Shown: piece after piece, positions 2,437 to 54,068 of the stretch | Layout of the letters: every line of letters starts with the position of its first letter | Numbering within the stretch: the first letter of the stretch is position 1 | Assembly (NCBI GenBank): GCA_045132055.1 | Contig: JBGURP010000055.1 | Coordinates: 104,372-168,371, forward strand | Direction of reading: 5' to 3' | DNA from: Bacteroidales bacterium | GTDB lineage: Bacteria; Bacteroidota; Bacteroidia; Bacteroidales; WCHB1-69 | DNA length: 64,000 nucleotides | The notes under the pieces: generated by a model | Databases searched by the model: none | Seen by the model: the letters and a program-made list of their open reading frames with translations, nothing else | Told to the model about the DNA's origin: nothing | Position numbers and translations under genes: made by a program

Positions 2437-2492
2437 TGCCATTTATTCGTCATATTTTGGCGACAAAAATACGAAAAACTCCGTTTGTGCAC

Positions 2493-3863
2493 ATGAGTCT
2501 CACTTTTCGCCCCATACAAATTGAAGATCAGGCCGTGTTCCGGCAGCACTTGCAGGACTGCGGGCGCGTGTGCGATCATGTCTTCGCCAATCTCTTCTGC
2601 TGGCGGGAGTATTATGGCAACCAGTGGGCCGCGTGCGCCGACCGGCTGATAATTCGTTCACAGTCCGCTGCAAGTCACAGTTTGCCTAAATACATGATTT
2701 ATCCTAACATCCACACCTCATCCCTGCCGCAAATTCTCGAGCAGATTGGCAAAGATGCAGGAGAAGACGGATATATCTTGTTGCAACTTTCTGAAAAAGA
2801 GCAGCAAACGCTTGAGCAACTTTATCCCGATGGTTTTCTGTACGACAATCTCCGTTTCAGAGCGGATTATCTGTATGAAACTCGTGCCTTTCAGACTTTC
2901 AGCGGGCGGAAATTGGCCGCCAAGCGCAATCATGTCAACAAGTTCAAGTCGCTGTATTCATATCATTACGAGCCGCTTATGCCCAAACATTTCGATGCGT
3001 GTCTGCAACTGCTGCGCCAATGGCGTGAGCATTACACGGGCGACGCAACGCATTTGAATATGGAAGAAATAGCCATTCGTCGTTTTTTGGACCATTTTGA
3101 GGAATTCGGGTTGTTTGGCGGAGCGTTGTTTGTGGAGGAGAATCTCGTGGCGTTTACGCTAGGGTCGCCCATCAACAGCCATACCTTCGATATTCATGTG
3201 GAGAAGGCTGACGCGCAATATGAGGGCGTTTTCCCGATGATCAGCCAGCAGTTTGCGCAGCATTTGCCGACACAATATACCCATATCAACCGGGAGGAGG
3301 ATTTGGGTTTGCCCGGTTTGCGGCAGTCGAAGCTGTCATACCAGCCGTTGCAATTGGTGGAGAAGCGCACCGCCCGGCTGGCCGACGATGATTTGCGCGG
3401 CATTGTGCGGTTGTGGCAGGCATGTTTCCATGACGAAATGGAGTTTGTACATACCTGTTTGTCGCGATACTATGACAGCCGCCATATATTCACGCGCAAA
3501 GTGGACGGGCGTGTGATTGCTGTTTGTCTGCTCATCCCGTGCGCGTGCGAAGTGGGGCGGGTTGGCTATTTGTATGGCATTGCGACGGAGGAGGCGTACC
3601 GCCGGCAGGGGTTAGCGGGCGAGGTGATACGCGAGGCGATAGGGTATGCGCGGGCGTGCGCCATGGACGCCGTGGTGCTGATCCCGGAGAATGAGGATTT
3701 GCGGAGATATTATGAAAAGTTTGGCTTCTTGGCGCACGCCCTGCCCGTGAGGTTCACCAACGACTGCGACTTGGGCACGGGCGATGTCACGCGCGACCTG
3801 GCCTCTGTCCTATGGCTGAACAAGGCGCACCCGGAAGTCGAGGCGCTGACGCTGACGGCTTAA
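2493..3863 (+). CDS. DUF2156-like domain plus GNAT N-acetyltransferase fusion protein
   Basis: The N-terminal part has the FANLFCWREYYG motif typical of DUF2156 (lysyl-PG synthase C-terminal-like). The C-terminus has a GNAT-like RRQGLAGEVI segment. Start moved to the internal Met (MSLTF) because the longer ORF overlaps the tRNA terminator. Confidence 0.6.
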   Translation: MSLTFRPIQIEDQAVFRQHLQDCGRVCDHVFANLFCWREYYGNQWAACADRLIIRSQSAASHSLPKYMIYPNIHTSSLPQILEQIGKDAGEDGYILLQLSEKEQQTLEQLYPDGFLYDNLRFRADYLYETRAFQTFSGRKLAAKRNHVNKFKSLYSYHYEPLMPKHFDACLQLLRQWREHYTGDATHLNMEEIAIRRFLDHFEEFGLFGGALFVEENLVAFTLGSPINSHTFDIHVEKADAQYEGVFPMISQQFAQHLPTQYTHINREEDLGLPGLRQSKLSYQPLQLVEKRTARLADDDLRGIVRLWQACFHDEMEFVHTCLSRYYDSRHIFTRKVDGRVIAVCLLIPCACEVGRVGYLYGIATEEAYRRQGLAGEVIREAIGYARACAMDAVVLIPENEDLRRYYEKFGFLAHALPVRFTNDCDLGTGDVTRDLASVLWLNKAHPEVEALTLTA

Positions 3864-3900
3864 TCCACCACCATTTTGCTAAACAACACACGGTCTAACA

Positions 3901-4110
3901 TCACCAGAGAACCTTTTCATAGCGTCGGTCAAGAGCAGTCCTGATTTTGCCGATGAATTCATCCACAGACATTGTATCTGTACCAGATGAAATCATGCCA
4001 TTACCAATGCTTGCAGCACTCTCATCAGAATGTGCAATTGTATATGTTGCAACTGGCTCTTCCGCTGTAAATTCTAATTGCTCTTTAATTTTGTATTTTT
4101 CAGGTTTCAT
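3901..4110 (-). CDS. Small hypothetical protein (69 aa)
   Basis: ORF with a TAnnTTTG box located inside the longer track ORF, so the start is taken as MKPEKYK. No recognisable domain. Confidence 0.4.
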   Translation of the reverse strand: MKPEKYKIKEQLEFTAEEPVATYTIAHSDESAASIGNGMISSGTDTMSVDEFIGKIRTALDRRYEKVLW

Positions 4111-4137
4111 AATGTATGTATGTTTATGTTTCCGCTG

Positions 4138-4145
4138 CAAAAGTA
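4138..4145 (-). promoter_or_regulatory. -7 promoter box (TACTTTTG on the minus strand) for the small ORF
   Basis: The reverse complement of caaaagta matches TAnnTTTG, ~28 nt upstream of the ATG at 4110. Confidence 0.45.
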
Positions 4146-4256
4146 CGCATTTTTTCATACGGCATCGTTACTCTTTTTGTTGTAACGCTATTTTAGGACG
4201 AGACAATTTGTGAACAGTCAAGGGGCGTGGCCGTGGGGCTGCGCCCTTTTGGGATG

Positions 4257-4700
4257 AGTGGGTTAATGGTGGAGGTTCCGCCAGCAAAGCTGGCGGAATG
4301 GTGAGGGCTCAGCGGTGCGTTTGTGGTATTTCGCGGCGGGTTGGTTCAGTGCCTCGGCGCATGTGTGTCGCGCACCGCGACCCAACGCACAGACCATCCC
4401 GCACCCAGGGGTTGACACCCCTGGTTATCGCTCACACCCTGCACGGGAGTGCAGGGTTGCGCATCGGGCGGCCTCTCCGAGGCATACGGCATCATAGCCA
4501 CAGACCTGCTGCAAGAGCTGAGTCCTGAAGAGAGACCTCCCATTGGTAGCCTCACACGGCAGTGTGAGGTACCGGCGATGCAGCGCATGGCCAATCGCGG
4601 CGCGGGAGTCGCGTGCACCGAAGCATAATGTTTGCCCGCCGCGAAACGCCCATCATTATCCACCAACCCACTACCATTCCGCGCGACATGTCGCGCGGAA
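4257..4700 (+). ncRNA. Candidate structured RNA or GC-rich hairpin-array element (unclassified; strand tentative)
   Basis: A 60-nt sample is ~63% GC. Two long-range helices (4257-4273/4659-4672 and 4325-4340/4635-4650) enclose perfect hairpins at 4276-4298, 4405-4424, 4436-4457 (GGGA loop), 4471-4483 and 4545-4573, with another at 4677-4700. There is no credible ORF. Confidence 0.35.
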
Positions 4701-4764
4701 CCTCCAACACTGCATTTTAATAAGCCCGAAAGCAGTCGAGACCAACTATCGCGATTGTAGAAGC

Positions 4765-5736
4765 TTACGCAAAAAACTTTGCCTTCACCTCATTCCAAAC
4801 CTCATCAGGAAGCTTGGCGCCGATGTGCTCGATGACTCTTCCGGCCAAGTAGGCGGCCAGCTCGCCCGCTTTCTCAGGGGTGTAGTCGTTCATCAAGCCA
4901 TACAAGAAGCCAGAGGCGTATATGTCTCCTGCGCCGGTGCTGTCCACGGCTTTCACCGGAATCACACCCACCTGCGTGACTTTGCCGTTCATCTTGATGT
5001 AGGAACCCTCCTTGCCGACTTTCACGATGGCCACAGGGCAGTATTCCGACAACACTTCCAATGCCTCCCGGCCCTCTTTGCCCGTAAAGGCCTTGGCTTC
5101 TTCCTCGTTGGCAAAGATAATGTCCACATAGTCCGTCAACAACATCTTCACGAAGTCGTAGTTGGCCTCGATGATGTTGTAGCTGGCCATGTCCATGGAG
5201 ATTTTCAGACCTTTTTCTTTGGCGATTTGGCATACTTTCAGGATAAGATCATGATTGAAGATGAGATAACCTTCCACATGGATGCAGTCGTACTGGTCAA
5301 ACACCTTGGGGTCAAGTTCATCGGGGGTCATCATGGCGGCAGCGCCGAGGTAGGTGGCGAAGGTGCGCTCGACATCCTGCGAGATGAAGGTGGTGGCGAT
5401 GCCCGTATCCACATCCGACTCGATCATGTGCGGGGTCACGTGGAAACGCTCCATCTCGCGGCGGAAGAAGTCGCCCATCTCGTCGCGGCCAATTTTGCCA
5501 ATGTAGCCCGCCGGAGCACCCAAACGCGCCAACCCGTGTATTGTGTTGGAGGTGGAGCCGCCCGTGGCACACGACTGTTTCATATTCTTGATCCGTTCGT
5601 GCAGCTCTTTCTTCCGCTCCGCATCAATCATCACCATGCCGCCCTTGTCCAAGCCATTTTGTTTCAATATCTCATCATTGTCAATATTCAACAAAACATC
5701 CACTAAGGCGTTTCCGATTCCTAATATCTTTTTCAT
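4765..5736 (-). CDS. PfkB-family carbohydrate/adenosine kinase
   Basis: 323 aa. N-terminal GIGNALVD and C-terminal DSTGAGD motifs are typical of the ribokinase/PfkB family. Confidence 0.85.
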   Translation of the reverse strand: MKKILGIGNALVDVLLNIDNDEILKQNGLDKGGMVMIDAERKKELHERIKNMKQSCATGGSTSNTIHGLARLGAPAGYIGKIGRDEMGDFFRREMERFHVTPHMIESDVDTGIATTFISQDVERTFATYLGAAAMMTPDELDPKVFDQYDCIHVEGYLIFNHDLILKVCQIAKEKGLKISMDMASYNIIEANYDFVKMLLTDYVDIIFANEEEAKAFTGKEGREALEVLSEYCPVAIVKVGKEGSYIKMNGKVTQVGVIPVKAVDSTGAGDIYASGFLYGLMNDYTPEKAGELAAYLAGRVIEHIGAKLPDEVWNEVKAKFFA

Positions 5737-5755
5737 ATACTCTCTTTTTTGAAAA

Positions 5756-6181
5756 TTAACACTCTTTTGCTTTGAATGCCACTGCGTACAATTTGATTTG
5801 CTTGATCATGGAGGCCAGACCATTGGAGCGGGTGGGGGAAAGATGCTCTTTCAGCCCAATGGCGTCCAAGTAATGGAGGTCGTTGTCGATGATTTCCTGT
5901 GGCGTCCGCTCCGATAAAACTCTAATTAGTAGATTTACAATGCCTTTTGTGATAATGGCATCGCTGTCAGCGGTAAAGAATACCTTGCCATCCCGATAGT
6001 CGGCATGTAGCCACACCTGCGACTGGCACCCGTCAATCAGAAATTCCGGAGTCTTGTATTGCTCGTCAATCATGGGTAGCTCCTTGCCAAGCTCTATGAT
6101 GTAGTTGTATTTGTCCATCCAGTCATCAAATAGCTCAAATTCTTCTATCAGAGCCTCTTCCACTTCTTTCATTGTTGCCAT
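5756..6181 (-). CDS. sufE: SufE-like cysteine desulfuration protein
   Basis: 141 aa. The DGCQSQVW active-site cysteine context and overall sequence are typical of SufE/CsdE. Confidence 0.8.
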   Translation of the reverse strand: MATMKEVEEALIEEFELFDDWMDKYNYIIELGKELPMIDEQYKTPEFLIDGCQSQVWLHADYRDGKVFFTADSDAIITKGIVNLLIRVLSERTPQEIIDNDLHYLDAIGLKEHLSPTRSNGLASMIKQIKLYAVAFKAKEC

Positions 6182-6193
6182 AACAGTATTTTT

Positions 6194-6691
6194 TTATTTT
6201 TGTGTATCTTCTTGATTTTCAACATGTATGATTTTCTCCCACTCCAAAGCATGCGGGACGATGGGGTTAATATATTCGAAAACTAACGATTTTTCTTTGG
6301 TTTCTTTCTTGATGATGATTTCGTGCGGGTCAATCATATCAATCAGATAGAAAAGGACGCTGAAGACCAGAATCACCTTGCCCGCTCCGAAAAGCAAGCC
6401 AAAAATATGGTCCACCGCTCCGGGAATCACCAGTTTCACAATCTTACACATCATTTTTCCAGCCAAATGCACCAAAAACAGAACGATAAAAAACGTTAAT
6501 GTGAAAGATATTTGTTTTGCAAAGGGCATGTCGGGTAGCCAAAGTGCAATTGAATCTGAAAAACGATAGGCGGCCCAAACACCGAGGATTAGTGCCAAAA
6601 TGGAGGTCAGCTCGTAAATGAGGCCCTTACGGAATCCCAAAAAGGCAAACCAACAGAGCGGAATCAGCACAATATAGTCGAGTAGGATCAT
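6194..6691 (-). CDS. CvpA family membrane protein
   Basis: 165 aa with four predicted TM segments and a CvpA-like N-terminus. Confidence 0.7.
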   Translation of the reverse strand: MILLDYIVLIPLCWFAFLGFRKGLIYELTSILALILGVWAAYRFSDSIALWLPDMPFAKQISFTLTFFIVLFLVHLAGKMMCKIVKLVIPGAVDHIFGLLFGAGKVILVFSVLFYLIDMIDPHEIIIKKETKEKSLVFEYINPIVPHALEWEKIIHVENQEDTQK

Positions 6692-6694
6692 AAA

Positions 6695-7447
6695 TTACAG
6701 GGATTGTCTGATTCTTTGGGTTAGCGGTTGGGCATAGATGAAATCGTTGAGTTCTTTGCTGTCGGAGGTCAGCACATTGTCCTTGTTGCCGCGCCAAGCC
6801 AGATGTCCTTCGTAGATGAAGGAGATGGTTTCTCCGATGGTGATGACGGAGTTGAGGTCGTGGGTGTTCACCACCGTGGTGATGCCGAACTCGTGGGTGA
6901 TATCAGTAATCAGTTCATCGATAACGAGCGAAGTCTTCGGGTCGAGGCCAGAGTTGGGCTCGTCGCAGAACAGGTACTTCGGGTTGCAGGCGATGGCGCG
7001 CGCGATGGCGGCACGCTTCTTCATACCGCCACTCAATTCGGCTGGATAAAGATTGTTCACATTGTGAAGATCCACTCGTTCCAAACAGAAGTTAACCCGA
7101 TCCAACTTTTCCTTGTCCGTCATATTGGTGAACATATCCAGCGGAAACCCCACATTTTCCTGTATGGTCATGGAGTCAAACAATGCGGAGCCTTGGAACA
7201 CCATGCCCATCTCGGCGCGGAGCAGCTGCTGTTCTGCAGTGCCCATGTGGTGGAAATCGCGGTTGTTGTAGAGTACCACGCCCTCCTCAGGGGAGTGCAA
7301 TCCCACCAGACATTTCATCAGCACGGTCTTGCCCGATCCAGAACGCCCGATAATCAGGTTCACCTTACCTTCCAAAAAAGAGGTGTTGATGTCAAACAAA
7401 ACCTGTTTGTCACCAAAATATTTCGATATATTGTTTAATACTATCAT
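6695..7447 (-). CDS. ABC transporter ATP-binding protein (MlaF-like)
   Basis: Walker A GRSGSGKT, signature LSGGMKKR, Walker B FCDEP. Adjacent to an MlaE-type permease. Confidence 0.85.
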   Translation of the reverse strand: MIVLNNISKYFGDKQVLFDINTSFLEGKVNLIIGRSGSGKTVLMKCLVGLHSPEEGVVLYNNRDFHHMGTAEQQLLRAEMGMVFQGSALFDSMTIQENVGFPLDMFTNMTDKEKLDRVNFCLERVDLHNVNNLYPAELSGGMKKRAAIARAIACNPKYLFCDEPNSGLDPKTSLVIDELITDITHEFGITTVVNTHDLNSVITIGETISFIYEGHLAWRGNKDNVLTSDSKELNDFIYAQPLTQRIRQSL

Positions 7448-7448
7448 A

Positions 7449-8192
7449 TTACAACATTATTTGGGTGACCAACACGTTCAAAATCAAAATAATGACACTG
7501 GAAACCACTATTCCTTGGGTATTTGCTATACCCAATTCCAATGCGCCACCATCAATTTTGTACCCATAAAATGAGGCTACTGATGACATGACAAAAGCGA
7601 AAATAAATGTTTTCACTATGGCGTAAACCACATCATATACCCGGAAAAACGAGATGAGTCCGTCCAAAAAATCGTATGTGGAGACGCACCCTGTTATGGC
7701 TACGGTGATGTAACTGCCGACCAAAGCGAAAAAAATACTGAAAATAATCAGGATGGGATTTACAATAAGAGAGGCCACAATCTTGGGCAACACTAGGTAG
7801 GATGCCGGATTGATACCCATAACTTCCAGGGCATCAATCTGTTCTGTTACCCGCATACTTCCTATTTCCGCCGTGATACGGGATCCAAGGTTGCCTACCA
7901 AGAGCAAACTGATGATAGTGGGACACACTTCCATCACGATAGAGGTGCGTGTGATAAAACCGACGGTCCAAGTTGGGACCCAGCTGCTCTCAATCTGCAT
8001 GGCCGTCTGGGTGGTAATAACGCTTCCTATGCCAATGGAGACGATGCTCACAATCAGCATGGAGCCGATGCCCATAGCATCCATCTCAAAGACTAATTTC
8101 TTGAAGAAGATGCTCCATTTGTCAGGTTTGGAGAACACCTTTTTCAGGAAAATAAAATAATCGCCGATAGTGATAAATAAATGCTCTATCAT
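7449..8192 (-). CDS. MlaE-family ABC transporter permease
   Basis: 247-aa polytopic membrane protein with the EQIDALEVMGINP motif typical of MlaE/Ttg2B. Confidence 0.8.
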   Translation of the reverse strand: MIEHLFITIGDYFIFLKKVFSKPDKWSIFFKKLVFEMDAMGIGSMLIVSIVSIGIGSVITTQTAMQIESSWVPTWTVGFITRTSIVMEVCPTIISLLLVGNLGSRITAEIGSMRVTEQIDALEVMGINPASYLVLPKIVASLIVNPILIIFSIFFALVGSYITVAITGCVSTYDFLDGLISFFRVYDVVYAIVKTFIFAFVMSSVASFYGYKIDGGALELGIANTQGIVVSSVIILILNVLVTQIML

Positions 8193-8232
8193 TATGCCGT
8201 GTTAAGATGGTGCAAAAATACACCTTTTTTTG

Positions 8233-8240
8233 TACTTTTG
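8233..8240 (+). promoter_or_regulatory. -7 promoter box (TACTTTTG)
   Basis: TAnnTTTG match 20 nt upstream of the ATG at 8261. It lies inside the longer track ORF. Confidence 0.5.
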
Positions 8241-8260
8241 CGCCTGCAAAACCAACTAGC

Positions 8261-9025
8261 ATGAGACCCGTTGTAACCTTAATCAGTGACTGGAGAACGC
8301 GCGACCCGTATGTGGCCATGTTCAAAGGCAAGCTGCTGACCGCTATTCCCGATGCGGAGATCATTGACATCAGTCATGTGGTGGACTTGTACAACATCAA
8401 CCAGACGGCGTTTCTCACCTTGCAGAGTTACCGCAACTTTCCTGAAGGTTCCATCCATATCCTGCTGACCAACGCCTCGGCCACATCTGCTTTTTCGCCT
8501 GTGGTGGTACCTTACGACGGGCATTTTTTCATCGGGGAGGACAACGGCATTTTCTGCCTCATGTTCAATCTTCATTTTCCCATCACCGGCCACCAGTATT
8601 CTGGCAGTACGCCTGGCGCGCTGGATAGAATCATTGAGCTGACACAGGCCGTGAAGGAAGAAAAGATGGAATCTGTTACAACGGAATACACGAATTTCAA
8701 GAGAATGTTTGCCGCATTGCCAATACATTTTGACAATGACCGAACCATTGAAGGGGAGATAGTGTACATCGATGCCTATTTCAATGCCATCACGAACATT
8801 CCGGTCAGCATGTTCAAAGAAGCGGTAGGCAAAGGTTCCTTCCAAGCCACCATTCATTCCAAAAAGGAATGGAAATGCCAGATTTATCACGACAATTATC
8901 GCCCGGAAGAGGAGTTTTATTTCACGGGCAATGCCTTAGGATGTCTTGAAATTGCCATGTATCAAGGCAATGTGGCCATATTGGCCGATTTCAAGGTGGG
9001 CGACAAAATTACCATCAAATATTAA
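8261..9025 (+). CDS. SAM hydrolase / SAM-dependent halogenase family protein (DUF62)
   Basis: N-terminus RPVVTLISDWRTRDPYVAMFKG is typical of the S-adenosyl-L-methionine hydroxide adenosyltransferase family. Start set to the Met after the promoter box. Confidence 0.75.
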   Translation: MRPVVTLISDWRTRDPYVAMFKGKLLTAIPDAEIIDISHVVDLYNINQTAFLTLQSYRNFPEGSIHILLTNASATSAFSPVVVPYDGHFFIGEDNGIFCLMFNLHFPITGHQYSGSTPGALDRIIELTQAVKEEKMESVTTEYTNFKRMFAALPIHFDNDRTIEGEIVYIDAYFNAITNIPVSMFKEAVGKGSFQATIHSKKEWKCQIYHDNYRPEEEFYFTGNALGCLEIAMYQGNVAILADFKVGDKITIKY

Positions 9026-32126: not shown

Positions 32127-32145
32127 AATTGATAATTTGAAATTT

Positions 32146-32193
32146 GGAATGGGAAATGGGGAATGGGGAATTGGGAATTGGGAATTGGGAATT
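32146..32193. repeat. Short tandem repeat of GGGAAT(T/G)-type units
   Basis: ggaatgggaaatggggaatggggaattgggaattgggaattgggaatt, in the intergenic region between the U32 and rluB-like genes. It is followed by repeated GTACCCTG and CCCTGAT words. Confidence 0.8.
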
Positions 32194-32236
32194 TAGACTG
32201 GAGATTGTACCCTGTTTACTGTACCCTGATCCCTGA

Positions 32237-34440: not shown

Positions 34441-35268
34441 TTAATTGTTATTAGTTCGTGCCGATTTCTTGCTTCCAAAATAATCGTAAAAAGTACCATT
34501 GGGAAAAGTTTTCTTCTCAAACATATAGTACTGTCTCTCTCCAGCCATATAAATACCTGTTGATACACTATTCTTGATGTGATTTTTTGCCGCATCACTA
34601 TCTGCACGACTTATAAAATCTTTGCCTGTGTGTTTCAAATCATGACTATGATAGGATTCTTTTTCGTTAGTGACTCCAGGCATTCTCACAAAAAGTTCCT
34701 CTCCTGCTGTCCCCACACGAACTTCCTTGTCAGAGGATGAAATTGCCCATTCCACAGATGTGTTCTCGGCAGCAAATTCAAAAAATGAATATCCAACATC
34801 TAAATTTGAAAAGTGCATATAGTTAGTTGTACAGGATTTCATAGAAGATTTCCCGTTTTCATCGAAAATCTCTTGTTCGAACGTATAAGAATCTTTTTTT
34901 TGATTAATACTATTTGCTGGAAACTTTCTACTTGTGGCCTCTCCTTCTGAAGTTGTTGCGTGAACTATATCTATATCGGTTCTGCCATTTTCTCTTTTAG
35001 TTAAAGTTCCATCACGTGCTAAATCCCACTCGTCCTCCCCGTTAGGATCAACAACTTTTATAGGGTTATTACTGCAATAAACATAGTTTGATTGATGAGG
35101 ATATTTCGAAGCCATCGGATCCACGCTCAGCCAAATGCTCAAATCGGAGTTGTAATACCTTGAACCAAAGTAGGAAAAGCCTGTTTCTTTGTCCTTTTCC
35201 TTTGCGGAGAAGGTGAAAGTCCGGGTAGGGGCAAAGGGGCTATATGCTCTGATGACGGGCATGGGCAA
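34441..35268 (-). CDS. Orphan Rhs C-terminal toxin cassette 3 (RHS core-end plus JAB/MPN-like tip)
   Basis: FTFSAKEKDKETGFSYFGSRYYNSDLSIWLSVDP...NPIKVVDPNGE followed by a ~210-aa variable domain containing YHSHD-x10-SRAD (HxH...SxxD). Confidence 0.75.
   Translation of the reverse strand: MPMPVIRAYSPFAPTRTFTFSAKEKDKETGFSYFGSRYYNSDLSIWLSVDPMASKYPHQSNYVYCSNNPIKVVDPNGEDEWDLARDGTLTKRENGRTDIDIVHATTSEGEATSRKFPANSINQKKDSYTFEQEIFDENGKSSMKSCTTNYMHFSNLDVGYSFFEFAAENTSVEWAISSSDKEVRVGTAGEELFVRMPGVTNEKESYHSHDLKHTGKDFISRADSDAAKNHIKNSVSTGIYMAGERQYYMFEKKTFPNGTFYDYFGSKKSARTNNN
35038..35217 (-). repeat. Rhs core-end homology box, copy 1 of 7
   Basis: DNA homologous to 39368-39548. Shares the exact 17-mer TTCACCTTCTCCGCAAA (gene-sense strand). 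This is the most diverged copy. Confidence 0.85.
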
Positions 35269-35281
35269 TTTTTTTTAAAGA

Positions 35282-35872
35282 TTATTTTTCACTACATTTG
35301 TAATGTTTGATAATTCTGTTGGCCTTGTGTTTTTTAACAGGTTTTTCAACCCGAATTGCAGAAGAAATACAATCATTTAAAGCAGCGGTGTCCCTTTCAG
35401 ATGCATATGTATATCCCACATATAAATGTTCAAAACCACTGTTGCTTACTCCATATAAATGATCTGGCTTTTCCAAGTTATATATTAAACAATATTTCCA
35501 AAATGTAGAATCGTGTCCTCCGCATTCATATAAAACACCTGCACTTGGTATATTAATTCTTTCTCCCGATTGATATAAGTGCTGCGTTTTCAGTAAAAAG
35601 TTGTACAAAGTGTCATGTGATTTATATGGATATTCCTCACTAATGTAAAAAATAGCGTCATGATAGGTGGTGAACGTATAACAATCTGAATGTCCCCTTA
35701 TTATGATTTTAATATTGCTGTTAAAAGGCAACTTTACCACATAGGCGGGGGAATCCTTTAATGGTTTGTATATAAATGCCTTACAACCACGTACATGTGA
35801 GTATGTTTCGCAACCATTTAATACAGTCATCACACACAAACAAATCAGACCCAGTTTAGCGCTTTTTTTCAT
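35282..35872 (-). CDS. Putative immunity lipoprotein for orphan toxin cassette 2
   Basis: Immediately downstream of, and overlapping, the CT gene. Start taken at MKKSAKLGLICLCVMTVLNGC (lipobox). Confidence 0.5.
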   Translation of the reverse strand: MKKSAKLGLICLCVMTVLNGCETYSHVRGCKAFIYKPLKDSPAYVVKLPFNSNIKIIIRGHSDCYTFTTYHDAIFYISEEYPYKSHDTLYNFLLKTQHLYQSGERINIPSAGVLYECGGHDSTFWKYCLIYNLEKPDHLYGVSNSGFEHLYVGYTYASERDTAALNDCISSAIRVEKPVKKHKANRIIKHYKCSEK

Positions 35873-36785
35873 AGGATTTGATATCAAAAGGTAAATATGG
35901 ACTTGTACCATCTTCATTTAAAAGCGATGGCCATTCTCCTCCTTGAAAATGTCCATCGTTAGTAAACCCAGACCTATAATGAGTTCTATATCCAAACCCT
36001 AATTCTTTTCGGACAATATTTTCCCTATAACAGGCGACCCATTCGTTTTTCCCTATTTTATCCTCGGGGTTGGGATCTCTCCCAACGGAAGTGAGATCTG
36101 TCCAATTATTATTGTCATCAAAAGCATGGGATAATTCATGAGCCAAATCACATGTTGGATTAAATTCTCCTAAAGGTGTTCCTTCAACGGGCAGCCTTGT
36201 TCCATTAGAATTCCATGTGATAGTATTCGGGTCATTTTTCTCGTATCCACTCGCGCCAGCTTTTATTGTATATTTAGTGTCTGATTCTTGCAAATCAGAA
36301 ATCATCCGGTTCCCCTCTGTGGTTTTATTTATCTTGTCCAATGAATTCTTCGCTTTGTTCACAAAGCGGTTCTGCTGTCGTTCATTAAGACTGCTACCTT
36401 TTAAATGAGTCAGCGTTCCGTCTTTTTCATACCTGTATTGTGATCCTTTCCATTCTATTATTATTTCTTCCCCATTCGGATCCACCAGCTTTATTGGGTT
36501 ATTCGCGCAATACACATACGGACTCAAATTCGGATATTTGTCACTCATCGGGTCAACGCTCAACCAGATGCTCAAGTCGGAGTTGTAGTACCTTGAGTCA
36601 AAGTAAGAAAAGCCTGTCTCGGCATCCTTCTCTTTTGCGGAGAAGGTGAAACGGGAAGATATATTGTTAAGATATTGATTTGCAATACTTTCAGTCACAC
36701 AGGAAGACATACTCCAACATCTGCGATAGGAGTTTCCATTGCAGGCCATTTCTGGGTAATATGACACGAGTGAATCGGACTTCAT
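35856..36785 (-). CDS. Orphan Rhs C-terminal toxin cassette 2 (HExxH metallopeptidase-like tip)
   Basis: Own ATG plus a 45-aa leader, then FTFSAKEKDAETGFSYF...NPIKLVDPNGEE, then a variable domain with AHELSHAFDD. Confidence 0.8.
   Translation of the reverse strand: MKSDSLVSYYPEMACNGNSYRRCWSMSSCVTESIANQYLNNISSRFTFSAKEKDAETGFSYFDSRYYNSDLSIWLSVDPMSDKYPNLSPYVYCANNPIKLVDPNGEEIIIEWKGSQYRYEKDGTLTHLKGSSLNERQQNRFVNKAKNSLDKINKTTEGNRMISDLQESDTKYTIKAGASGYEKNDPNTITWNSNGTRLPVEGTPLGEFNPTCDLAHELSHAFDDNNNWTDLTSVGRDPNPEDKIGKNEWVACYRENIVRKELGFGYRTHYRSGFTNDGHFQGGEWPSLLNEDGTSPYLPFDIKSYEKKR
36470..36650 (-). repeat. Rhs core-end homology box, copy 2 of 7
   Basis: Shares the exact 26-mer TTCACCTTCTCCGCAAAAGAGAAGGA (gene-sense) with the main rhs gene. 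Confidence 0.9.
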
Positions 36786-36789
36786 TCGG

Positions 36790-36797
36790 CAAAGTTA
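36790..36797 (-). promoter_or_regulatory. Cassette promoter box (TAACTTTG on the minus strand), 4 nt upstream of the orphan 2 ATG
   Basis: The same GTAACTTTGCC box with the same 4-nt spacing to the ATG occurs at 52510 and 55529. Confidence 0.55.
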
Positions 36798-36846
36798 CGA
36801 AATATTCAAATACAGTTAATTATTTAACTGACAAGGGGGCATATCA

Positions 36847-37473
36847 TTATTTTTTTCGTGATTTGCATATTGACAAACAACCATTGTCTTCAGATGGCAA
36901 TATCTGAACATCTATAAATTCATATAATTTTTTTTGAGTTGTGTTACTTGTCAAAATCGTTTCGTCGGTGATTTTTATCCATAAATACATTTCAATAAAT
37001 GGCATATAATCAACTATGGATTTCCCTATTTCAGTCTTACATTGCGCCTCCCAAAATTGTATTCTACTTTTTCTGTCCATACGTAAAAAAATCACATCAT
37101 GTGCTGGATACCTAATACTATCCACATAAACTATTGTTGTTAATGGTGCTATCCGAAAAAACGATGGCAACCAACAGCAGTTTTTAGCATCAACACTATC
37201 ATCGCCCAACACATAAGAATCATTTGTCAATGGGTGTAATGCATGTTTATAAGGTTCGTTGTAAATTTTCTGATATTCTCGAATACAGCACATCGCCGTA
37301 ATACGCAGCATGCAAGGTTTGTCAATTGGCAGATATAGCGTGTCAGTTCTGTTAAAATCCCTGTTGGTATATATTTTTTCAATGCTATTATATTTTCTGT
37401 TCTGAGAAAATATAATATTAACATTAGACAACAAAAATAATACTAAGAAAATTCTAATAACCATTGATTTCAT
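36847..37473 (-). CDS. Putative immunity protein for orphan toxin cassette 1 (secreted)
   Basis: Starts 8 nt after the CT gene stop. Has a signal peptide (MKSMVIRIFLVLFLLSNVNIIFSQ) and low GC. Confidence 0.5.
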   Translation of the reverse strand: MKSMVIRIFLVLFLLSNVNIIFSQNRKYNSIEKIYTNRDFNRTDTLYLPIDKPCMLRITAMCCIREYQKIYNEPYKHALHPLTNDSYVLGDDSVDAKNCCWLPSFFRIAPLTTIVYVDSIRYPAHDVIFLRMDRKSRIQFWEAQCKTEIGKSIVDYMPFIEMYLWIKITDETILTSNTTQKKLYEFIDVQILPSEDNGCLSICKSRKK

Positions 37474-37481
37474 AATAGCAT

Positions 37482-38360
37482 TTATTTGTAAAAAGACTTG
37501 ATAAGAGATGGTGTGTGTGCTCCTTTATCAAACCCCTCATATAATCTCGTGGAATTGGCAATCGATTTGCTTTTAAAACCATCTCGTAGGGTATTGAATT
37601 TTTTAGTGAAATTAGTTTCATTAATACGGCGACATTGAAAATCAGCAAAAGCTTCACTATAGGGATCTCCTTCTTTGGTACCGCCTTTAGGCCCCAACAC
37701 CAATCCGCCTCCAACTGTCAACATTGAAAAAAGATTAGCCTCCACCTCATTATGTATGGAAGCGCCTCCTTGTCCTTTCAATTCTTGATAACCATGAAAT
37801 AGTTCATGAGCCAGATAATCAGCATTATCTAATTGTCCATTCATATACATGGTTCCACCGTTGTTTCCATCTTTCTGAAATCGTCCAGTCCCATCATTTT
37901 TAAGGGATTCATTGGTAAATGTGAAAGTGGGTGAATCCTTCCCCGTCATTTCATCAATTACTGATTTACCGGCTTCTTTCCCATATATTTTATCAAGATT
38001 GTTCCATGCTGCCTGAACATTCTTGTCTGTGCTGTTGCATTGTTGCCCAGGAGTGAAAGTGTGTTCTCCATCCTCGCCTTGTATTACTATTGTTTCCCCA
38101 TTCGGATCCACCAGCTTAATGGGGTTGTTGGCACAATAGGTATATGGCGACAAATTCGGATATTTGTCACTCATCGGATCGACGCTCAGCCAGATGGACA
38201 AATCGGAGCTGTAATACCTTGAACCAAAGTAAGAAAAGCCGGTTTCGGAGTCCTTTTCTTTTGCGGAGAAGGTGAAACTTGCTGAAAACAAGGTTTTTAT
38301 GGGGTAATATGTTGATACTGGGGTGTTCATACGCCGTGAAATTACAAAATAATTGAACAT
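37482..38360 (-). CDS. Orphan Rhs C-terminal toxin cassette 1 (HExxH metallopeptidase-like tip)
   Basis: FTFSAKEKDSETGFSYFGSRYYSSDLSIWLSVDPMSDKYPNLSPYTYCANNPIKLVDPNGE, then a variable domain with AHELFHGYQ. The true start may be the internal Met at 38330. Confidence 0.8.
   Translation of the reverse strand: MFNYFVISRRMNTPVSTYYPIKTLFSASFTFSAKEKDSETGFSYFGSRYYSSDLSIWLSVDPMSDKYPNLSPYTYCANNPIKLVDPNGETIVIQGEDGEHTFTPGQQCNSTDKNVQAAWNNLDKIYGKEAGKSVIDEMTGKDSPTFTFTNESLKNDGTGRFQKDGNNGGTMYMNGQLDNADYLAHELFHGYQELKGQGGASIHNEVEANLFSMLTVGGGLVLGPKGGTKEGDPYSEAFADFQCRRINETNFTKKFNTLRDGFKSKSIANSTRLYEGFDKGAHTPSLIKSFYK
38096..38277 (-). repeat. Rhs core-end homology box, copy 3 of 7
   Basis: Contains a 43-nt exact direct match to the main rhs box (ggatatttgtcactcatcggatcgacgctcagccagatggaca). 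Confidence 0.9.
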
Positions 38361-38449
38361 GGCACAAGTTCCTTGCTGTTGTGCGGCGTGGGAGGTTTAA
38401 ATAATTGTAACAACCATAAGATATTGTCCATTTTTGAGAATGACTTCTA

Positions 38450-38800
38450 TCATAGAACATGTGGTGAAATATTTATTACAATATTTTTTCCCTGTATAAT
38501 AGAATCGGGTGAATAATGAAGAATCAATTGAGAGGTATACCAATCTAAATAAAATGAAGTGTCTGTGGAGTTCTGGAATTTTTTAGAAATCATGTATGAA
38601 TCCCCGTCTTGAAGGTCTATTTGAAAACTCCCTAACACATCTCCTTGGATAGTAACGTCTATCCCAGTAATATTCAAATCTTCATCAAAACATATCGTAT
38701 CTGTCACTTCTGAACAAATAGTATCTATGAGAAATGACTGGGATGAATCATTCTCACAAGATGCTAATGCTAAAGAAGATATAAGCAAAACGATTGCCAT
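38450..38800 (-). CDS. Putative cognate immunity lipoprotein of the resident Rhs toxin tip
   Basis: The ATG lies 1 nt after the rhs stop (TAG-A-ATG). MAIVLLISSLALASC is a lipobox. 116 aa. Confidence 0.55.
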   Translation of the reverse strand: MAIVLLISSLALASCENDSSQSFLIDTICSEVTDTICFDEDLNITGIDVTIQGDVLGSFQIDLQDGDSYMISKKFQNSTDTSFYLDWYTSQLILHYSPDSIIQGKNIVINISPHVL

Positions 38801-38801
38801 T

Positions 38802-50946: not shown

Positions 50947-51762
50947 ATGAATCAGCCTGTTACATATAGTAAAACATTTCTGCCCGACACGCTTGCGGAG
51001 ATTTTCACCTTCTCCGCAAAAGAGAAGGACGCAGAAACCGGCTATTCTTACTTTGGCTCAAGGTATTACAGCAGCGATCTGAGTATCTGGCTCAGCGTCG
51101 ATCCGCAGGCTTCGAAATATCCTTCTTTGAGTCCGTACGTGTATTGCGCGAATAACCCGATAAAGTTGATGGATCCGAATGGGGAAGATTATGAAACCAT
51201 TATAAATAAAGATAATAAAACCATAACCATTAAAGCAATATATTATGCAAAAGATTCCGATAAGAAAAACCTCCAAAAAGGACTTGATGCTTGGAATAGC
51301 CAATCCGGCAAATACACTTTCACTATAGAAAATGGTGAAAATGCAGGAACTTATACCATAAACTTTGAACTAACCATGGCAGAGAGTGACGGGACAAGTA
51401 GCCCTATCGATGGCATTTCGAATTCTTTCGAGATGGTTTCAGATAACATTGGTGGGCGAGGTCTAACTAACGACGGCCGTACTATTAAAGTAAACAATAA
51501 CGCTCCGGACAGGACGATTATTCACGAAATAGGTCATACATTAGGAAATGGAGAATTTAATCGCGGAGTAATGCTACAAGGAGGGAATAGTGACAAAATC
51601 TTAAAGGAAAACATATCAACTACGCTTAATCAAGCAGGCTTTCATAGTCTGGGTAATTTCTGTGGCTCTCAAATCACAGATCCACCATCACAATCATGCA
51701 ACACTTTTTGTAATCAAACCACTAATGAACCCATATATGGGATAATTAACAGAAAAAGATGA
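50947..51762 (+). CDS. Orphan Rhs C-terminal toxin cassette 4 (HExxH metallopeptidase-like tip)
   Basis: MNQPVTYSKTFLPDTLAEI leader, then FTFSAKEKDAETGYSYFGSRYYSSDLSIWLSVDPQASKYP...NPIKLMDPNGED, then a variable domain with IIHEIGHTLG. The upstream part of the track ORF is GC-rich non-coding-like sequence. Confidence 0.8.
   Translation: MNQPVTYSKTFLPDTLAEIFTFSAKEKDAETGYSYFGSRYYSSDLSIWLSVDPQASKYPSLSPYVYCANNPIKLMDPNGEDYETIINKDNKTITIKAIYYAKDSDKKNLQKGLDAWNSQSGKYTFTIENGENAGTYTINFELTMAESDGTSSPIDGISNSFEMVSDNIGGRGLTNDGRTIKVNNNAPDRTIIHEIGHTLGNGEFNRGVMLQGGNSDKILKENISTTLNQAGFHSLGNFCGSQITDPPSQSCNTFCNQTTNEPIYGIINRKR
51004..51186 (+). repeat. Rhs core-end homology box, copy 5 of 7 (inverted relative to the main gene)
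   Basis: Starts with the exact 26-mer TTCACCTTCTCCGCAAAAGAGAAGGA. Confidence 0.9.
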
Positions 51763-52454: not shown

Positions 52455-52509
52455 AAATACAATTTTGTATCTTCCACATATTGCTAATTAACCTTAATTA
52501 ATTATTTTG

Positions 52510-52517
52510 TAACTTTG
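52510..52517 (+). promoter_or_regulatory. Cassette promoter box (TAACTTTG), 4 nt upstream of the orphan 5 ATG
   Basis: The TTTTGTAACTTTGCAGC-ATG context is shared with 36790-36797 (minus strand) and 55529-55536. Confidence 0.55.
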
Positions 52518-52521
52518 CAGC

Positions 52522-53388: not shown

Positions 53389-53399
53389 TTAGTACCATT

Positions 53400-53990: not shown

Positions 53991-54068
53991 GGTGAAAGTT
54001 TAATACTGATAAATCGTGGTCATCAACTCGACTCATTAAATTCTGTATCATTACTTTATTTAATCCTT

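What the first reader, a model, noticed from the sequence alone, without database searches (positions are those of the whole stretch)
4224..4700. A ~440-nt GC-rich element packed with perfect hairpins and closed by long-range helices: unclassified structured RNA or palindromic element
The element lies between a small ORF, which has its own promoter at 4138-4145, and the 3' end of a kinase gene. A 60-nt sample (4381-4440) is ~63% GC, and there is no credible ORF.

**Long-range pairings.**
- 4257-4273 pairs with 4659-4672 (8 bp, a 3-nt bulge, then 6 bp).
- 4329-4340 pairs with 4635-4646 (12 bp perfect, TTTCGCGGCGGG/CCCGCCGCGAAA), extendable by a G-U and two G-C pairs.

**Local hairpins.**
- 4276-4298: 10 bp
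- 4405-4424: 8 bp
- 4436-4457: 9 bp with a GGGA loop, which is GNRA only on the plus strand
- 4471-4483: 5 bp
- 4545-4573: 12 bp with one bulge
- 4677-4700: 10 bp

The stems differ in sequence, so they are not copies of one repeat. Several pairs are G-T on the plus strand and would be A-C on the minus strand, which weakly favours a plus-strand RNA. The two end hairpins are embedded in imperfect terminal inverted repeats (ACCATTCCGC..GCGGAACCTCCA), so a MITE-like DNA element is the main alternative.
Basis: partly seen in the sequence, partly recalled or inferred. Interest (0 to 1): 0.6.

Follow-up and report, generated by a model that had tools for sequence, protein, structure and literature searches.

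The report
Composite hairpin repeat in rumen Bacteroidales
The hairpin-packed GC-rich stretch is real, but it is most likely one copy of a low-copy, modular palindromic DNA repeat of uncultured rumen Bacteroidales rather than a dedicated large RNA gene; its hairpin units resemble the little-understood Acido-Lenti-1 motif.

Summary
Window 4225-4709 is 62-65% GC and non-coding. It folds far better than shuffled sequence on both strands (z about -9), and every hairpin and long-range helix listed is present.

As a whole it matches no Rfam family, phage or plasmid. It is not unique: I recovered about 12 related copies from uncultured rumen/gut Bacteroidales, at four or more genomic contexts, with three copies in one MAG. 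Close relatives lack it at the same kinase locus.

The family is modular:
- two inverted terminal "T" hairpins (TTCCGC..GCGGAA);
- two imperfectly complementary arms of about 100 nt;
- one of three alternative centres.

The centres are built from 8-bp CC..GG hairpin units. In sister copies these score as Rfam Acido-Lenti-1 (38.4 and 37.7 bits, threshold 37). The window copy reaches only 20 bits.

Several results point to a DNA-level palindromic mosaic (BIME/REPIN/MITE-like):
- no compensatory change in the long-range helices;
- folding energies within about 16 kcal/mol on the two strands;
- two hairpin-loop flips;
- one copy in the opposite orientation to its neighbours;
- solo T hairpins between neighbouring accessory genes;
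- position at the edge of a horizontally exchanged island.

A dedicated structured RNA is not excluded, because the centre is unusually conserved. Interest is modest.

The parts
4225..4254 (+). H2: a GC-rich hairpin (GGGGCGTGGCCGTGGGGCTGCGCCC) followed by TTTT. It is a terminator-like tail module that recurs next to the element and at the ends of accessory-gene arrays in related loci.
   Evidence: Folded as a hairpin. Homologous copies with the same flanks (CCCACACACAAACCAAA-H2-TTGACTGTTCAC on the other strand) occur in L015, L016, L018, L019, L021, L022 and L023. In L021, L022 and L023 it sits in terminator orientation behind a + strand gene.
4267..4302 (.). Terminal T hairpin, 'T3' type: TGGAGG-TTCCGC-CAGC-AAA-GCTG-GCGGAA-TGGTG.
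   Evidence: 10-bp stem (I9). The pattern TTCCGC N6-16 GCGGAA occurs only twice in the 64 kb, against 0.06 expected. The same unit is found 1-7 times in each of the related loci L012-L023 that carry the element family.
4303..4427 (.). One arm (the 3' arm in minus-strand reading). It pairs imperfectly with 4593-4672 and is shared by centre types A and B. It contains hairpin 4405-4424.
   Evidence: Type-B copies match window 4427-4265 at 88-90% identity.
4405..4432 (+). Hairpin unit CCAGGGGT-TGAC-ACCCCTGG plus GGTTA tail. It resembles hairpin 1 of Acido-Lenti-1.
   Evidence: 15.6 bits with model R1, built from the published seed. The loop is inverted in L017.
4428..4592 (.). Type-A centre: the family-variable module, replaced by unrelated or distantly related sequence in type B and type C copies.
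   Evidence: BLAST breakpoints are at 4427/4428 and 4592/4593. It is nearly invariant among the six type-A copies.
4436..4457 (.). Perfect 9-bp hairpin with loop GGGA on the + strand (TCCC on the - strand). It fits the CC..GG hairpin template.
   Evidence: I12. 17.0 bits with R1. The loop is inverted in L012 (columns 278-281).
4542..4569 (-). Degenerate Acido-Lenti-1-like unit: CCUCACAC-UGCC-GUGUGAGG-CUA.
   Evidence: Rfam RF01687 scores 20.3 bits (E = 0.011, threshold 37), and R1 scores 20.7 bits. The same alignment columns hold hits of 34-38 bits in type-B copies.
4593..4672 (.). The other arm (the 5' arm in minus-strand reading). It holds CCCGCCGCGAAA, which pairs with 4329-4340.
   Evidence: Type-B copies match window 4706-4593 at 87-96% identity.
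4673..4709 (.). Terminal T hairpin, 'T5' type: ACCA-TTCCGC-GCGAC-AT-GTCGC-GCGGAA-CCTCCAACA. It is inverted relative to 4267-4302.
   Evidence: I3, I4 and I8..
4710..4764 (-). Spacer of 55 nt between the element and the kinase stop codon. No terminator or promoter motif was found in it.
   Evidence: A different 33-nt spacer occupies this position in L017, L019, L020 and L022.
4765..5736 (-). PfkB-family (adenosine) kinase gene. The element lies directly 3' of it on the same strand.
   Evidence: Pfam PF00294, E = 8e-48. Homologues are named adenosine kinase of Bacteroidales MAGs.
3901..4110 (-). Small accessory ORF of 69 aa counted from the second ATG, with its own TACTTTTG -7 motif at 4138-4145. 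Together with the element it forms the stretch that is missing in L008.
   Evidence: There are four representative homologues, three of them about 70 aa. No Pfam family matched.

Best explanation
Window 4225-4709 is one copy of a low-copy, lineage-restricted composite palindromic DNA repeat of uncultured rumen/gut Bacteroidales.

**Anatomy (shown).** It is a nest of inverted repeats:
- two terminal T hairpins in inverted orientation;
- two arms of about 100 nt that are roughly 75-90% complementary;
- a swappable centre (types A, B, C) built from 8-bp CC..GG hairpin units related to the Rfam Acido-Lenti-1 motif.

**Behaviour (shown).** It is non-coding, multi-copy and modular, with presence/absence polymorphism. 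It sits at the kinase-proximal edge of a variable, horizontally exchanged island of small accessory genes.

**How it changes and spreads (inferred).**
- It behaves as DNA rather than as a dedicated RNA gene.
- Units are shuffled between copies by recombination at the shared hairpins and arms. Both A and B centres occur at the same kinase junction.
- Palindromes are kept perfect, and loops are flipped, by intrastrand template switching.
- Copies travel with the islands.

**Likely side effect (inferred).** The window copy has no promoter of its own and no terminator between it and the kinase stop codon. It is therefore probably transcribed as the kinase 3' UTR. There its very stable fold could block 3'-5' exonucleases or read-through into the neighbouring acquired gene, as REP/BIME elements do.
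For: **Multi-copy and dispersed**
- Related copies were recovered as L012-L023.
- Three lie on three contigs of one MAG, RGIG7800.
- There are at least four contexts: 3' of the kinase, 3' of MeaB, next to a PDDEXK_2 gene, and between Fib_succ_major genes.

**Presence/absence**
- Relatives whose kinase protein is 91-95% identical lack the element (L002, L004-L008).
- The window's kinase DNA is closer to element-free L002 (89.3%) than to element-bearing L019 (87.2%).

**Island edge**
- L019 and L020 are about 85% identical upstream.
- They are essentially identical (10 mismatches clustered at 4599-4623 and 6 scattered ones) from 54 nt before the kinase stop for at least 4.5 kb, and the element itself is 431/431 identical.

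**Modularity**
- The arms are shared while the centre differs.
- L017 and L019 share the junction and one arm, then diverge.
- Solo T hairpins and a mini-element with a different interior occur in L016.
- A degenerate relative lies at L012:11560-11960.

**No strand preference**
- MFE is -264 against -265 kcal/mol on the two strands.
- G-U pair counts are 72 against 63.
- L021 carries the core in the opposite orientation relative to co-directional flanking genes.

**No covariation in the long-range helices**
- There were 0 double changes in helices 3-6 across 8 sequences. Double changes occur only in the T-hairpin upper stems.
- The divergent L021 copy shows uncompensated mismatches.

**Loop inversions**
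- Two perfect hairpins have inverted loops.

**Hairpin units match a known clustered motif**
- RF01687 scores 38.4 bits in L015 and 37.7 bits in L021.
- Each type-B centre is bounded by two inverted units.
- The published seed of that family is itself multi-copy, in tandem or alternating arrays.

**No promoter**
- No Bacteroidetes -7 motif occurs inside or directly upstream of the element on either strand.
Against: - The type-A centre is much more conserved than neutral sites in a vertically comparable pair. L012 and L014 differ by about 2.4% in the centre, against 8.5-24% at four-fold sites of the flanking genes and about 15% in the arms. A purely selfish DNA repeat would be expected to conserve its ends, not its middle.
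- Copy number is low. There are 2 T hairpins in 64 kb, both inside the element.
- No consistent target-site duplication was seen.
- No GTAG or CGTC tag was seen.
- No transposase or recombinase was found nearby, so no mobilisation mechanism is shown.
- Three of four contexts have the same orientation relative to the upstream gene.
- Variable positions are 2.3 times commoner in unpaired than in paired columns.
- The homologous hairpin differs at 4 base pairs between types A and B while staying paired. This is compatible with selection on a fold.
Confidence: 0.55

Rival explanations
1. It is a genuine large structured non-coding RNA of about 450 nt, or a structured 3' UTR domain. The conserved centre would be the functional core. 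The T hairpins and arms would merely close the fold. Types A, B and C would be variants with swapped peripheral domains, as in other large bacterial RNAs.
For: - The fold is extreme (z about -9).
- The centre is conserved beyond four-fold sites.
- Substitutions are enriched in unpaired columns.
- Several one-sided changes keep G-U or Watson-Crick pairing on the minus strand.
- The minus strand folds better in 5 of 6 copies.
- Three of four contexts are co-oriented with the upstream gene.
- Hairpin 1 keeps its structure with 4 compensatory pairs between types A and B.
- Weinberg et al. 2010 rated Acido-Lenti-1 a likely RNA.
Against: - No promoter or terminator defines a transcript.
- No compensatory change occurs in any long-range helix.
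- The two strands have near-equal energies.
- Loop sequences are inverted in two copies.
- L021 is in the reversed orientation.
- L012 and L014 lack one closing hairpin, and L017 lacks a whole arm.
- The three centres share no common architecture beyond the hairpin-unit type.
- Close relatives do without the element altogether.
Confidence: 0.17
2. It is the end-platform or recombination module of a cassette array. T hairpins would be the sites at which promoter-carrying small genes (P-module, gene, T hairpin) are inserted or excised. The structured core would mark the array end next to a conserved chromosomal gene, loosely analogous to an integron attI/attC arrangement.
For: - Arrays of the form T5-core-T3-(P-gene-T3)n-tail-H2 occur with n = 0 (L022, L023, window), n = 1 (L018) and n = 2 (L016).
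- A conserved promoter module of about 150 nt abuts the T3 flank in front of unrelated genes: PBECR1, GIY-YIG, ORF6N and PDDEXK_2.
- T3 forms direct repeats on both sides of the ORF6N cassette in L018.
- The island downstream of the element is horizontally exchanged.
Against: - No integrase or recombinase was found beside any array.
- The T ends read 5'-GTTGGAG...CTCCAAC-3', the reverse of the attC arrangement (RYYYAAC...GTTRRRY), and match its consensus at only 6 of 7 positions.
- No cassette was seen in two different arrays.
- Homologous recombination between repeated T and P modules explains the same pattern.
- The window copy has no cassette between T3 and H2.
Confidence: 0.1
3. It is an invertible DNA segment (an inverton) flipped by recombination between the two inverted T hairpins, as with the phase-variable promoters of Bacteroidales.
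For: - Inverted repeats of 15 nt or more lie about 400 bp apart.
- The host order is rich in invertons (background knowledge).
- In L021 the core is inverted relative to the outer T3/half-T/promoter context.
Against: - All 7 independent assemblies that contain the kinase 3' end have the same orientation (window, L013, L017, L018, L019, L020, L022).
- No TAnnTTTG promoter motif lies inside the element.
- No recombinase gene is adjacent.
Confidence: 0.04
4. It is a decayed protein-coding gene or gene fragment whose GC richness creates spurious structure.
For: Long ORFs of 76-184 aa can be read through it on both strands, and gene callers have called them in a few assemblies.
Against: - The pseudo-ORFs have no Pfam hits.
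- Searches of 5.8 billion proteins returned only pseudo-ORFs from other copies of the same element.
- A 2-nt indel in the most conserved region and the loop inversions break every frame.
- The structure z-score is measured against dinucleotide-preserving shuffles, so GC content alone does not explain it.
Confidence: 0.01

Closest known systems
Acido-Lenti-1 RNA motif (Rfam RF01687; Weinberg et al. 2010, PMC2864571)
   Same: The hairpin units of the centre follow its template: an 8-bp stem closed by CC/GG, a 4-nt loop, a GGCUA linker and a second short hairpin. Sister copies score at or above Rfam's threshold (L015 38.4 bits, L021 37.7 bits). Like the published seed, the units are clustered and occur in both orientations. 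Acido-Lenti-1 hits have also been noted in large unannotated intergenic stretches of Tannerella, another member of the Bacteroidales (bioRxiv 10.64898/2026.02.09.704811).
   Different: - The window copy reaches only 20.3 bits, so it is not a member by Rfam's criterion.
- The motif is 46 nt, whereas this element is about 450 nt with additional T hairpins, long arms and unique sequence.
- The family was described from Acidobacteria and Lentisphaerae as a candidate sRNA of unknown function.
REP / BIME / REPIN elements (RAYT-associated extragenic palindromes)
   Same: - GC-rich imperfect palindromes of about 35 nt (the T hairpins) lie in intergenic DNA 3' of genes.
- They occur as inverted doublets and in mosaic clusters with other short motifs.
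- They are expected to be co-transcribed in 3' UTRs.
   Different: - There is no GTAG or CGTC tag.
- Copy number is very low in the sequence available.
- The inverted T units are about 370 nt apart, not tens of nt.
- No RAYT was identified.
Bacterial MITEs (for example Correia, ERIC/IRU, RUP)
   Same: Terminal inverted repeats, size under 600 bp, non-coding, dispersed copies, presence/absence polymorphism, extensive fold-back potential, and internal insertion or replacement variants.
   Different: - There is no consistent target-site duplication.
- The ends are less conserved than the middle.
- No parent insertion sequence with the same ends was found.
- Few copies.
Bacteroidales invertons (invertible promoters)
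   Same: Inverted repeats bracket a segment of a few hundred bp in a Bacteroidales genome next to variable genes.
   Different: - There is no internal promoter motif.
- No neighbouring recombinase.
- The orientation is the same in every assembly of the kinase locus.

Membership tests
Acido-Lenti-1 (RF01687) | The 46-nt two-hairpin motif scores at or above the Rfam gathering threshold of 37 bits. | tested here: not met
   Window 4542-4569(-) scores 20.3 bits, E = 0.011, and 20.7 bits with my re-built model R1. Sister copies do meet it: L015 38.4 bits and L021 37.7 bits. L016 reaches 36.1, L017 34.2, and L012/L014 28.9 bits with R1.
Acido-Lenti-1 (RF01687) | Clustered, multi-copy occurrence, as in the published seed. 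| tested here: met
   The window element holds three sub-threshold units, and nothing else in the 64 kb has E < 0.5. Each type-B centre holds two inverted units. The seed shows tandem copies at a 74-nt period and alternating arrays.
REP / REPIN | A short (20-40 nt) GC-rich imperfect palindrome repeated in intergenic DNA. | tested here: met
   T hairpins are 35-40 nt with a conserved TTCCGC/GCGGAA base. There are 1-7 per related locus.
REP / REPIN | A conserved GTAG or CGTC tag at one end (Di Nocera et al. 2013, PMC3733652). | tested here: not met
   The flanks are TGGAGG and TGGTGG. No GTAG or CGTC adjoins the stem in any of the 30 T hairpins listed.
REP / REPIN | High copy number per genome. 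| tested here: inconclusive
   There are only 2 in the 64-kb window, both in the element.
REP / REPIN | A cognate RAYT (IS200-like Y1 transposase) flanked by the repeats. | not testable with these tools
   No such gene appears among the neighbours examined.
MITE | Terminal inverted repeats. | tested here: met
   14 of 15 positions match in the window (I3). L013 has a perfect TGTTGGAGGTTCCGC...GCGGAACCTCCAACA.
MITE | Target-site duplication flanking the terminal inverted repeats. | tested here: not met
   The flanks differ in the window (TTAATGG / ACACTGC), in L019 and in L015. Only a possible CATT is seen in L013.
MITE | Several dispersed copies, with filled and empty sites. | tested here: met
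   There are four or more contexts, 3 contigs of one MAG, and empty kinase sites in L002-L009.
MITE | An autonomous insertion sequence with the same ends. | not testable with these tools
   None lies in the fetched loci. No phage, plasmid or viral match was found.
Structured ncRNA gene | Base pairs supported by compensatory substitutions. | tested here: inconclusive
   Across 88 pairs and 8 sequences, 3 pairs show double changes, all in T-hairpin upper stems. Helices 3-6 show none. Diversity is low.
Structured ncRNA gene | One defined transcribed strand with its own promoter and terminator. | tested here: not met
   No TAnnTTTG or sigma-70-like promoter and no terminator bracket the element. 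The two strands fold about equally well. L021 is reversed.
Bacteroidales inverton | Both orientations are found at one locus. | tested here: not met
   Seven assemblies that contain the kinase 3' end all have the same orientation. Read-level data are not available.
Integron attC / cassette array | RYYYAAC...GTTRRRY core sites and a neighbouring IntI. | tested here: not met
   The ends read GTTGGAG...CTCCAAC, which is the reverse arrangement and matches only 6 of 7 positions. This was read directly from the sequence. No integrase lies among the neighbours.

The most novel reading that the evidence does not exclude
The T hairpins may be recombination sites of a previously undescribed cassette system in rumen Bacteroidales. 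Small genes of toxin or nuclease type, each carrying its own conserved promoter module of about 150 nt, would be inserted between T hairpins. The arrays would be anchored 3' of a core gene by the structured core of about 450 nt, which would act as the array platform, as DNA or as an RNA cofactor. No known integrase family would be involved.
Probability: 0.08. Interest if true: 0.8.

Novelty: new member of a known kind. Interest (0 to 1): 0.33.

Why it matters
**If the main reading is right**
- This adds an uncharacterised composite palindromic repeat to the small catalogue of such elements in Bacteroidales.
- It marks recombination-prone edges of accessory islands in uncultured rumen species.
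- It suggests that the Rfam Acido-Lenti-1 "sRNA" may be a REP/BIME-like repeat unit rather than a trans-acting RNA. That would change how its hits, for example beside Tannerella virulence genes, should be read.

**Practical points**
- Gene callers occasionally call false ORFs of 80-180 aa in the element.
- Its perfect hairpins are likely assembly breakpoints.

**If the minority readings are right**, it would be either a new large bacterial RNA or a new kind of gene-cassette array. Either would matter much more.

Tried and rejected
- **Rfam, whole window at gathering thresholds:** only two tRNAs.
- **Rfam, sensitive scan of 3800-4900:** only chance-level hits.
- **ARAGORN on 4100-4800:** nothing.
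- **Viral contigs, three patterns, and BLAST against plasmids and phages:** no match, so there is no evidence of a phage or plasmid origin.
- **Decayed gene:** rejected. Pfam was negative for the pseudo-ORFs, protein searches returned only the same element, and a 2-nt indel breaks the frames.
- **Plus-strand RNA inferred from G-T pairs:** rejected.
- **Canonical REP:** no GTAG or CGTC tag.
- **Canonical MITE:** no target-site duplication.
- **attC:** the core sites are in the wrong arrangement.
- **Inverton:** the orientation is the same in all assemblies of the kinase locus, and there is no internal promoter.
- **Site-specific integration into the kinase 3' end:** I considered this because L019 and L020 become identical 54 nt before the stop codon. 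I could not distinguish it from ordinary homologous recombination and found no direct repeat of the kinase end in the window, so I make no claim.
- **Selection on the centre inferred from its conservation:** the centre is conserved. But centres are exchanged between copies at the same locus, so gene conversion or transfer is an equally good explanation.
- **Literature searches for a described Bacteroidales palindromic repeat:** nothing specific.
Full report

Yes. Window 4201-4700 is 61-65% GC. The small-ORF region to its left is 36-47% GC, and the sequence to the right is about 52%.

- the perfect 12-bp long-range helix 4329-4340 / 4635-4646;
- the outer helix 4257-4269 / 4660-4672;
- the local hairpins at 4276-4298, 4405-4424, 4436-4457, 4550-4569 and 4677-4700;
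- the terminal inverted repeats 4267-4281 / 4695-4709 and 4293-4302 / 4673-4682.

It also finds a further imperfect 31-nt long-range arm, 4350-4380 / 4595-4625.

The region folds far better than dinucleotide-preserving shuffles:

| Strand and parameters | MFE (kcal/mol) | z-score |
|---|---|---|
| + strand, RNA | -264 | -9.06 |
| - strand, RNA | -265.3 | -8.85 |
| + strand, DNA | -130 | -8.4 |

The context is as stated. A PfkB kinase gene lies at 4765-5736(-). A small ORF lies at 3901-4158(-), with a Bacteroidetes -7 motif at 4138-4145.

**2. It is not a known RNA as a whole, nor a gene**

- Rfam at gathering thresholds finds only two tRNAs in the window.
- A sensitive scan of 3800-4900 gives only chance-level hits.
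- ARAGORN finds nothing.
- The long ORFs that can be read through the GC-rich DNA have no Pfam match.
- Two searches of 5.8 billion proteins with those pseudo-ORFs returned only five "proteins". All are mis-called ORFs in other copies of the same element.
- A 2-nt indel in the most conserved part (L012, L014) and two hairpin-loop inversions break every frame.

**3. It is a repeated, modular element**

Those mis-called ORFs served as handles. With one scan each of the genome and metagenome collections, they gave related copies at L012-L023. All come from uncultured Bacteroidales of ruminant or gut samples. Three copies lie on three contigs of a single MAG, RGIG7800.

Read on the window's minus strand, the common plan is:
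- a T hairpin (TGGAGG-TTCCGC...GCGGAA-TGGTGG);
- an arm of about 95 nt;
- a centre;
- an arm of about 110 nt;
- an inverted T hairpin.

A tail module often follows, ending in a second hairpin, H2 (window 4225-4250).

The arms are shared, but the centre comes in three versions:
- type A: window, L012, L013, L014, L018, L019, L020;
- type B: L015, L016, L017, L022, L023;
- type C: L021.

The breakpoints fall at window 4427/4428 and 4592/4593.

Other observations on the family:
- T hairpins keep the 6-bp base TTCCGC/GCGGAA. Their upper stems differ in sequence but remain perfectly paired.
- T hairpins also occur alone between neighbouring genes. They bracket a shorter element with a different interior in L016.
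- A degenerate relative lies at L012:11560-11960.
- In the 64-kb window the T pattern occurs only twice, both in this element, against 0.06 expected.

**4. Where it sits**

At the kinase locus the element is polymorphic.
- Relatives with 91-95% identical kinase (L002, L004-L008) and the 84% relative L009 lack it.
- The window's kinase DNA is closer to element-free L002 (89.3%) than to element-bearing L019 (87.2%).
- Relative to L008, the window has an extra stretch of about 850 bp (about 3864-4713): the element plus the small ORF.
- Relative to L002, the whole of 2437-4764 is an insertion between the kinase stop codon and its terminator and tRNA.

L019 and L020 are about 85% identical upstream. 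From 54 nt before the kinase stop they are essentially identical for at least 4.5 kb, apart from 10 mismatches clustered at 4599-4623 and 6 scattered ones. The element itself is 431/431 identical. The element therefore sits at the edge of a recently exchanged accessory island.

Other contexts are:
- directly behind the MeaB stop codon (L012, L014);
- behind a PDDEXK_2 "transposase" gene (L015, L016);
- between two Fib_succ_major genes (L021).

In L021 the core has the opposite orientation relative to co-directional neighbours.

The island genes are small, of nuclease or toxin type: PBECR1, GIY-YIG, ORF6N, an HTH protein and PDDEXK_2.

**5. RNA or DNA?**

I looked for the signatures of a functional RNA fold.

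*Strand.* The two strands have near-identical energies. The consensus folds contain 72 G-U pairs on one strand and 63 on the other. The minus strand is better by 3-16 kcal/mol in 5 of 6 copies.

*Covariation.* I counted 88 pairs of the arm and T-hairpin structure across 8 sequences.
- 95% of cells are paired, but almost all pairs are invariant.
- The only double changes are in T-hairpin upper stems.
- The four long-range helices show none.
- The more divergent L021 copy carries uncompensated mismatches.

*Loops.* The loop of 4436-4457 is inverted in L012. The loop of 4405-4424 is inverted in L017. This is the footprint of intrastrand template switching in DNA palindromes. It is not expected if loop sequence mattered on one strand.

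*Transcription signals.* No promoter motif lies inside or in front of the element on either strand, and no terminator lies between it and the kinase stop.

*Evidence on the other side.*
- The type-A centre is strikingly conserved. In the vertically comparable pair L012/L014 it differs by about 2.4%. Four-fold sites of the flanking genes differ by 8.5% and 24%, and the arms by about 15%.
- Variable columns are 2.3 times commoner in unpaired positions.
- One hairpin keeps its fold with four compensatory pairs between types A and B.

However, A and B centres occur behind the same junction and arm (L017 against L019). Centres are therefore exchanged between copies, so conversion or transfer can explain the conservation as well as selection can.

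**6. The link to a known family**

Scanning sister copies gave Rfam hits to Acido-Lenti-1 (RF01687) at or above threshold:
- L015:6158-6203, 38.4 bits;
- L021:1985-2030, 37.7 bits (gathering threshold 37).

I rebuilt the model from the published seed and searched without filters.
- Each type-B centre is bounded by two inverted units, for example L015 at 37.7 bits (+) and 25.9 bits (-).
- Type-A copies L012 and L014 reach 28.9 bits.
- The window has three sub-threshold units: 4542-4569(-) at 20.7 bits, 4436-4456 at 17.0 bits and 4405-4432(+) at 15.6 bits. Nothing else in the 64 kb has E < 0.5.

The internal hairpins therefore differ in sequence but fit one template: CC, 6 bp, a 4-nt loop, 6 bp, GG, often followed by GGCUA.

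Acido-Lenti-1 was described in 2010 as a candidate sRNA of unknown function, sometimes found near group II introns. Its seed alignment is multi-copy, with tandem copies at a 74-nt period and clusters in alternating orientation. A 2026 preprint notes hits in large unannotated intergenic stretches of Tannerella. These properties resemble REP/BIME-type repeats. That reinterpretation is my inference, not a shown fact.

**7. Best explanation**

The element is a composite palindromic DNA repeat: a nest of inverted units (T hairpins, arms, Acido-Lenti-1-like units). It is reshuffled by recombination and template switching, and it travels with accessory islands of rumen Bacteroidales.

In the window it is probably co-transcribed as the kinase 3' UTR. 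There it could act as an exonuclease or read-through barrier. This is inferred by analogy with REP/BIME elements and was not tested.

My confidence in each reading:

| Reading | Confidence |
|---|---|
| Composite palindromic DNA repeat | 0.55 |
| Dedicated structured RNA | 0.17 |
| Cassette-array platform with T hairpins as recombination sites | 0.10 |
| Inverton | 0.04 |
| Decayed gene | 0.01 |

**8. Membership**

It fails defining tests of every named family.
- Acido-Lenti-1: the window copy is below threshold.
- REP/REPIN: no GTAG or CGTC tag, and low copy number in the sequence available.
- MITE: no target-site duplication.
- attC: the core sites are in the wrong arrangement.
- Inverton: one orientation only, and no internal promoter.

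It works most like a BIME or MITE-type mosaic. I file it as a new member of that general kind, not as a member of any named family.

**9. Limits**

- Only about 12 copies were found, and many are closely related.
- Whole genomes, reads and transcriptomes were not available.
- No mobilising enzyme was identified.

Noticed in passing
L016:4759-4885, 6498-6624, 7389-7515; L018:717-876; L019:4455-4627; L015:6498-6640: A conserved AT-rich promoter/leader module of about 150 nt, ending in TGTATnTTTGC, sits directly after the outer flank of a T hairpin. It precedes unrelated small genes: PDDEXK_2, PBECR1 nuclease, GIY-YIG and ORF6N. It looks like a portable hairpin-plus-promoter unit, or like the boundary of gene cassettes.
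   Followed up: partly
L019 vs L020, locus coordinates 3895-8480: Two metagenome contigs are about 85% identical through the core genes. They become essentially identical (16 mismatches, 10 of them clustered at 4599-4623) from 54 nt before the kinase stop codon for at least 4.5 kb. This is a sharply bounded, recently exchanged accessory island whose first feature is the element.
   Followed up: partly
window 2437-4764: Relative to L002/L004, the whole block is an insertion placed exactly between the kinase stop codon and its terminator and the tRNA at 2331-2403. The block comprises the LPG_synthase_C/GNAT gene, the small ORF and the element. TAA is present at both joints. L008 has the GNAT gene but not the element.
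   Followed up: partly
window 4436-4457 vs L012:3974-3995; window 4405-4424 vs L017:6341-6364: The 4-6 nt loops of two perfect hairpins are reverse-complemented in single copies of the family. These are small inversions typical of template switching in DNA palindromes.
   Followed up: yes
L016:7924-8166: A shorter element is bounded by the same T hairpins but has a different interior: a GGGCGGCGGCGG...CTGCCGCCGCCC hairpin and a TTCCGAACGATGC variant T hairpin. It folds with z = -9.
   Followed up: partly
L012:11560-11960: A degenerate relative of the family lies downstream of a Fib_succ_major gene. It has T-like hairpins GGATTCCGCCG...CGGCGGAACGG and CCATTCCGTGAGACGC...GAGCGGAA, plus an Acido-Lenti-1 hairpin-2-like GCGTGCCTTCGGCAC.
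   Followed up: no
Published Acido-Lenti-1 seed (PMC2864571, supplementary file 183): Seed members in Lentisphaera are clustered. Four copies occur at a 74-nt period (NZ_ABCK01000001.1, 416513-416780), and copies alternate in orientation on NZ_ABCK01000016.1 (15912-16336). Many carry an A-C mismatch that would be a G-U pair on the other strand. This suggests a REP/BIME-like repeat rather than a trans-acting sRNA.
   Followed up: partly
window 3901-4110 (-): The small AT-rich ORF next to the element (69 aa from the second ATG) belongs to a rare family. Only 4 representatives were found in 1.84 billion proteins, three of them about 70 aa long. No Pfam domain matched.
   Followed up: partly
window 35035-39567 and 51003-54298: Seven copies of a segment of about 190 nt, 68-89% identical, are spaced 1.3-1.6 kb apart in two clusters of opposite orientation. 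They are probably a conserved part of a paralogous gene family.
   Followed up: no
window 32131-32198, 47575-47614, 48140-48193: Short GGGAAT/TGGGGAA-type tandem repeats recur at three intergenic-looking sites.
   Followed up: no
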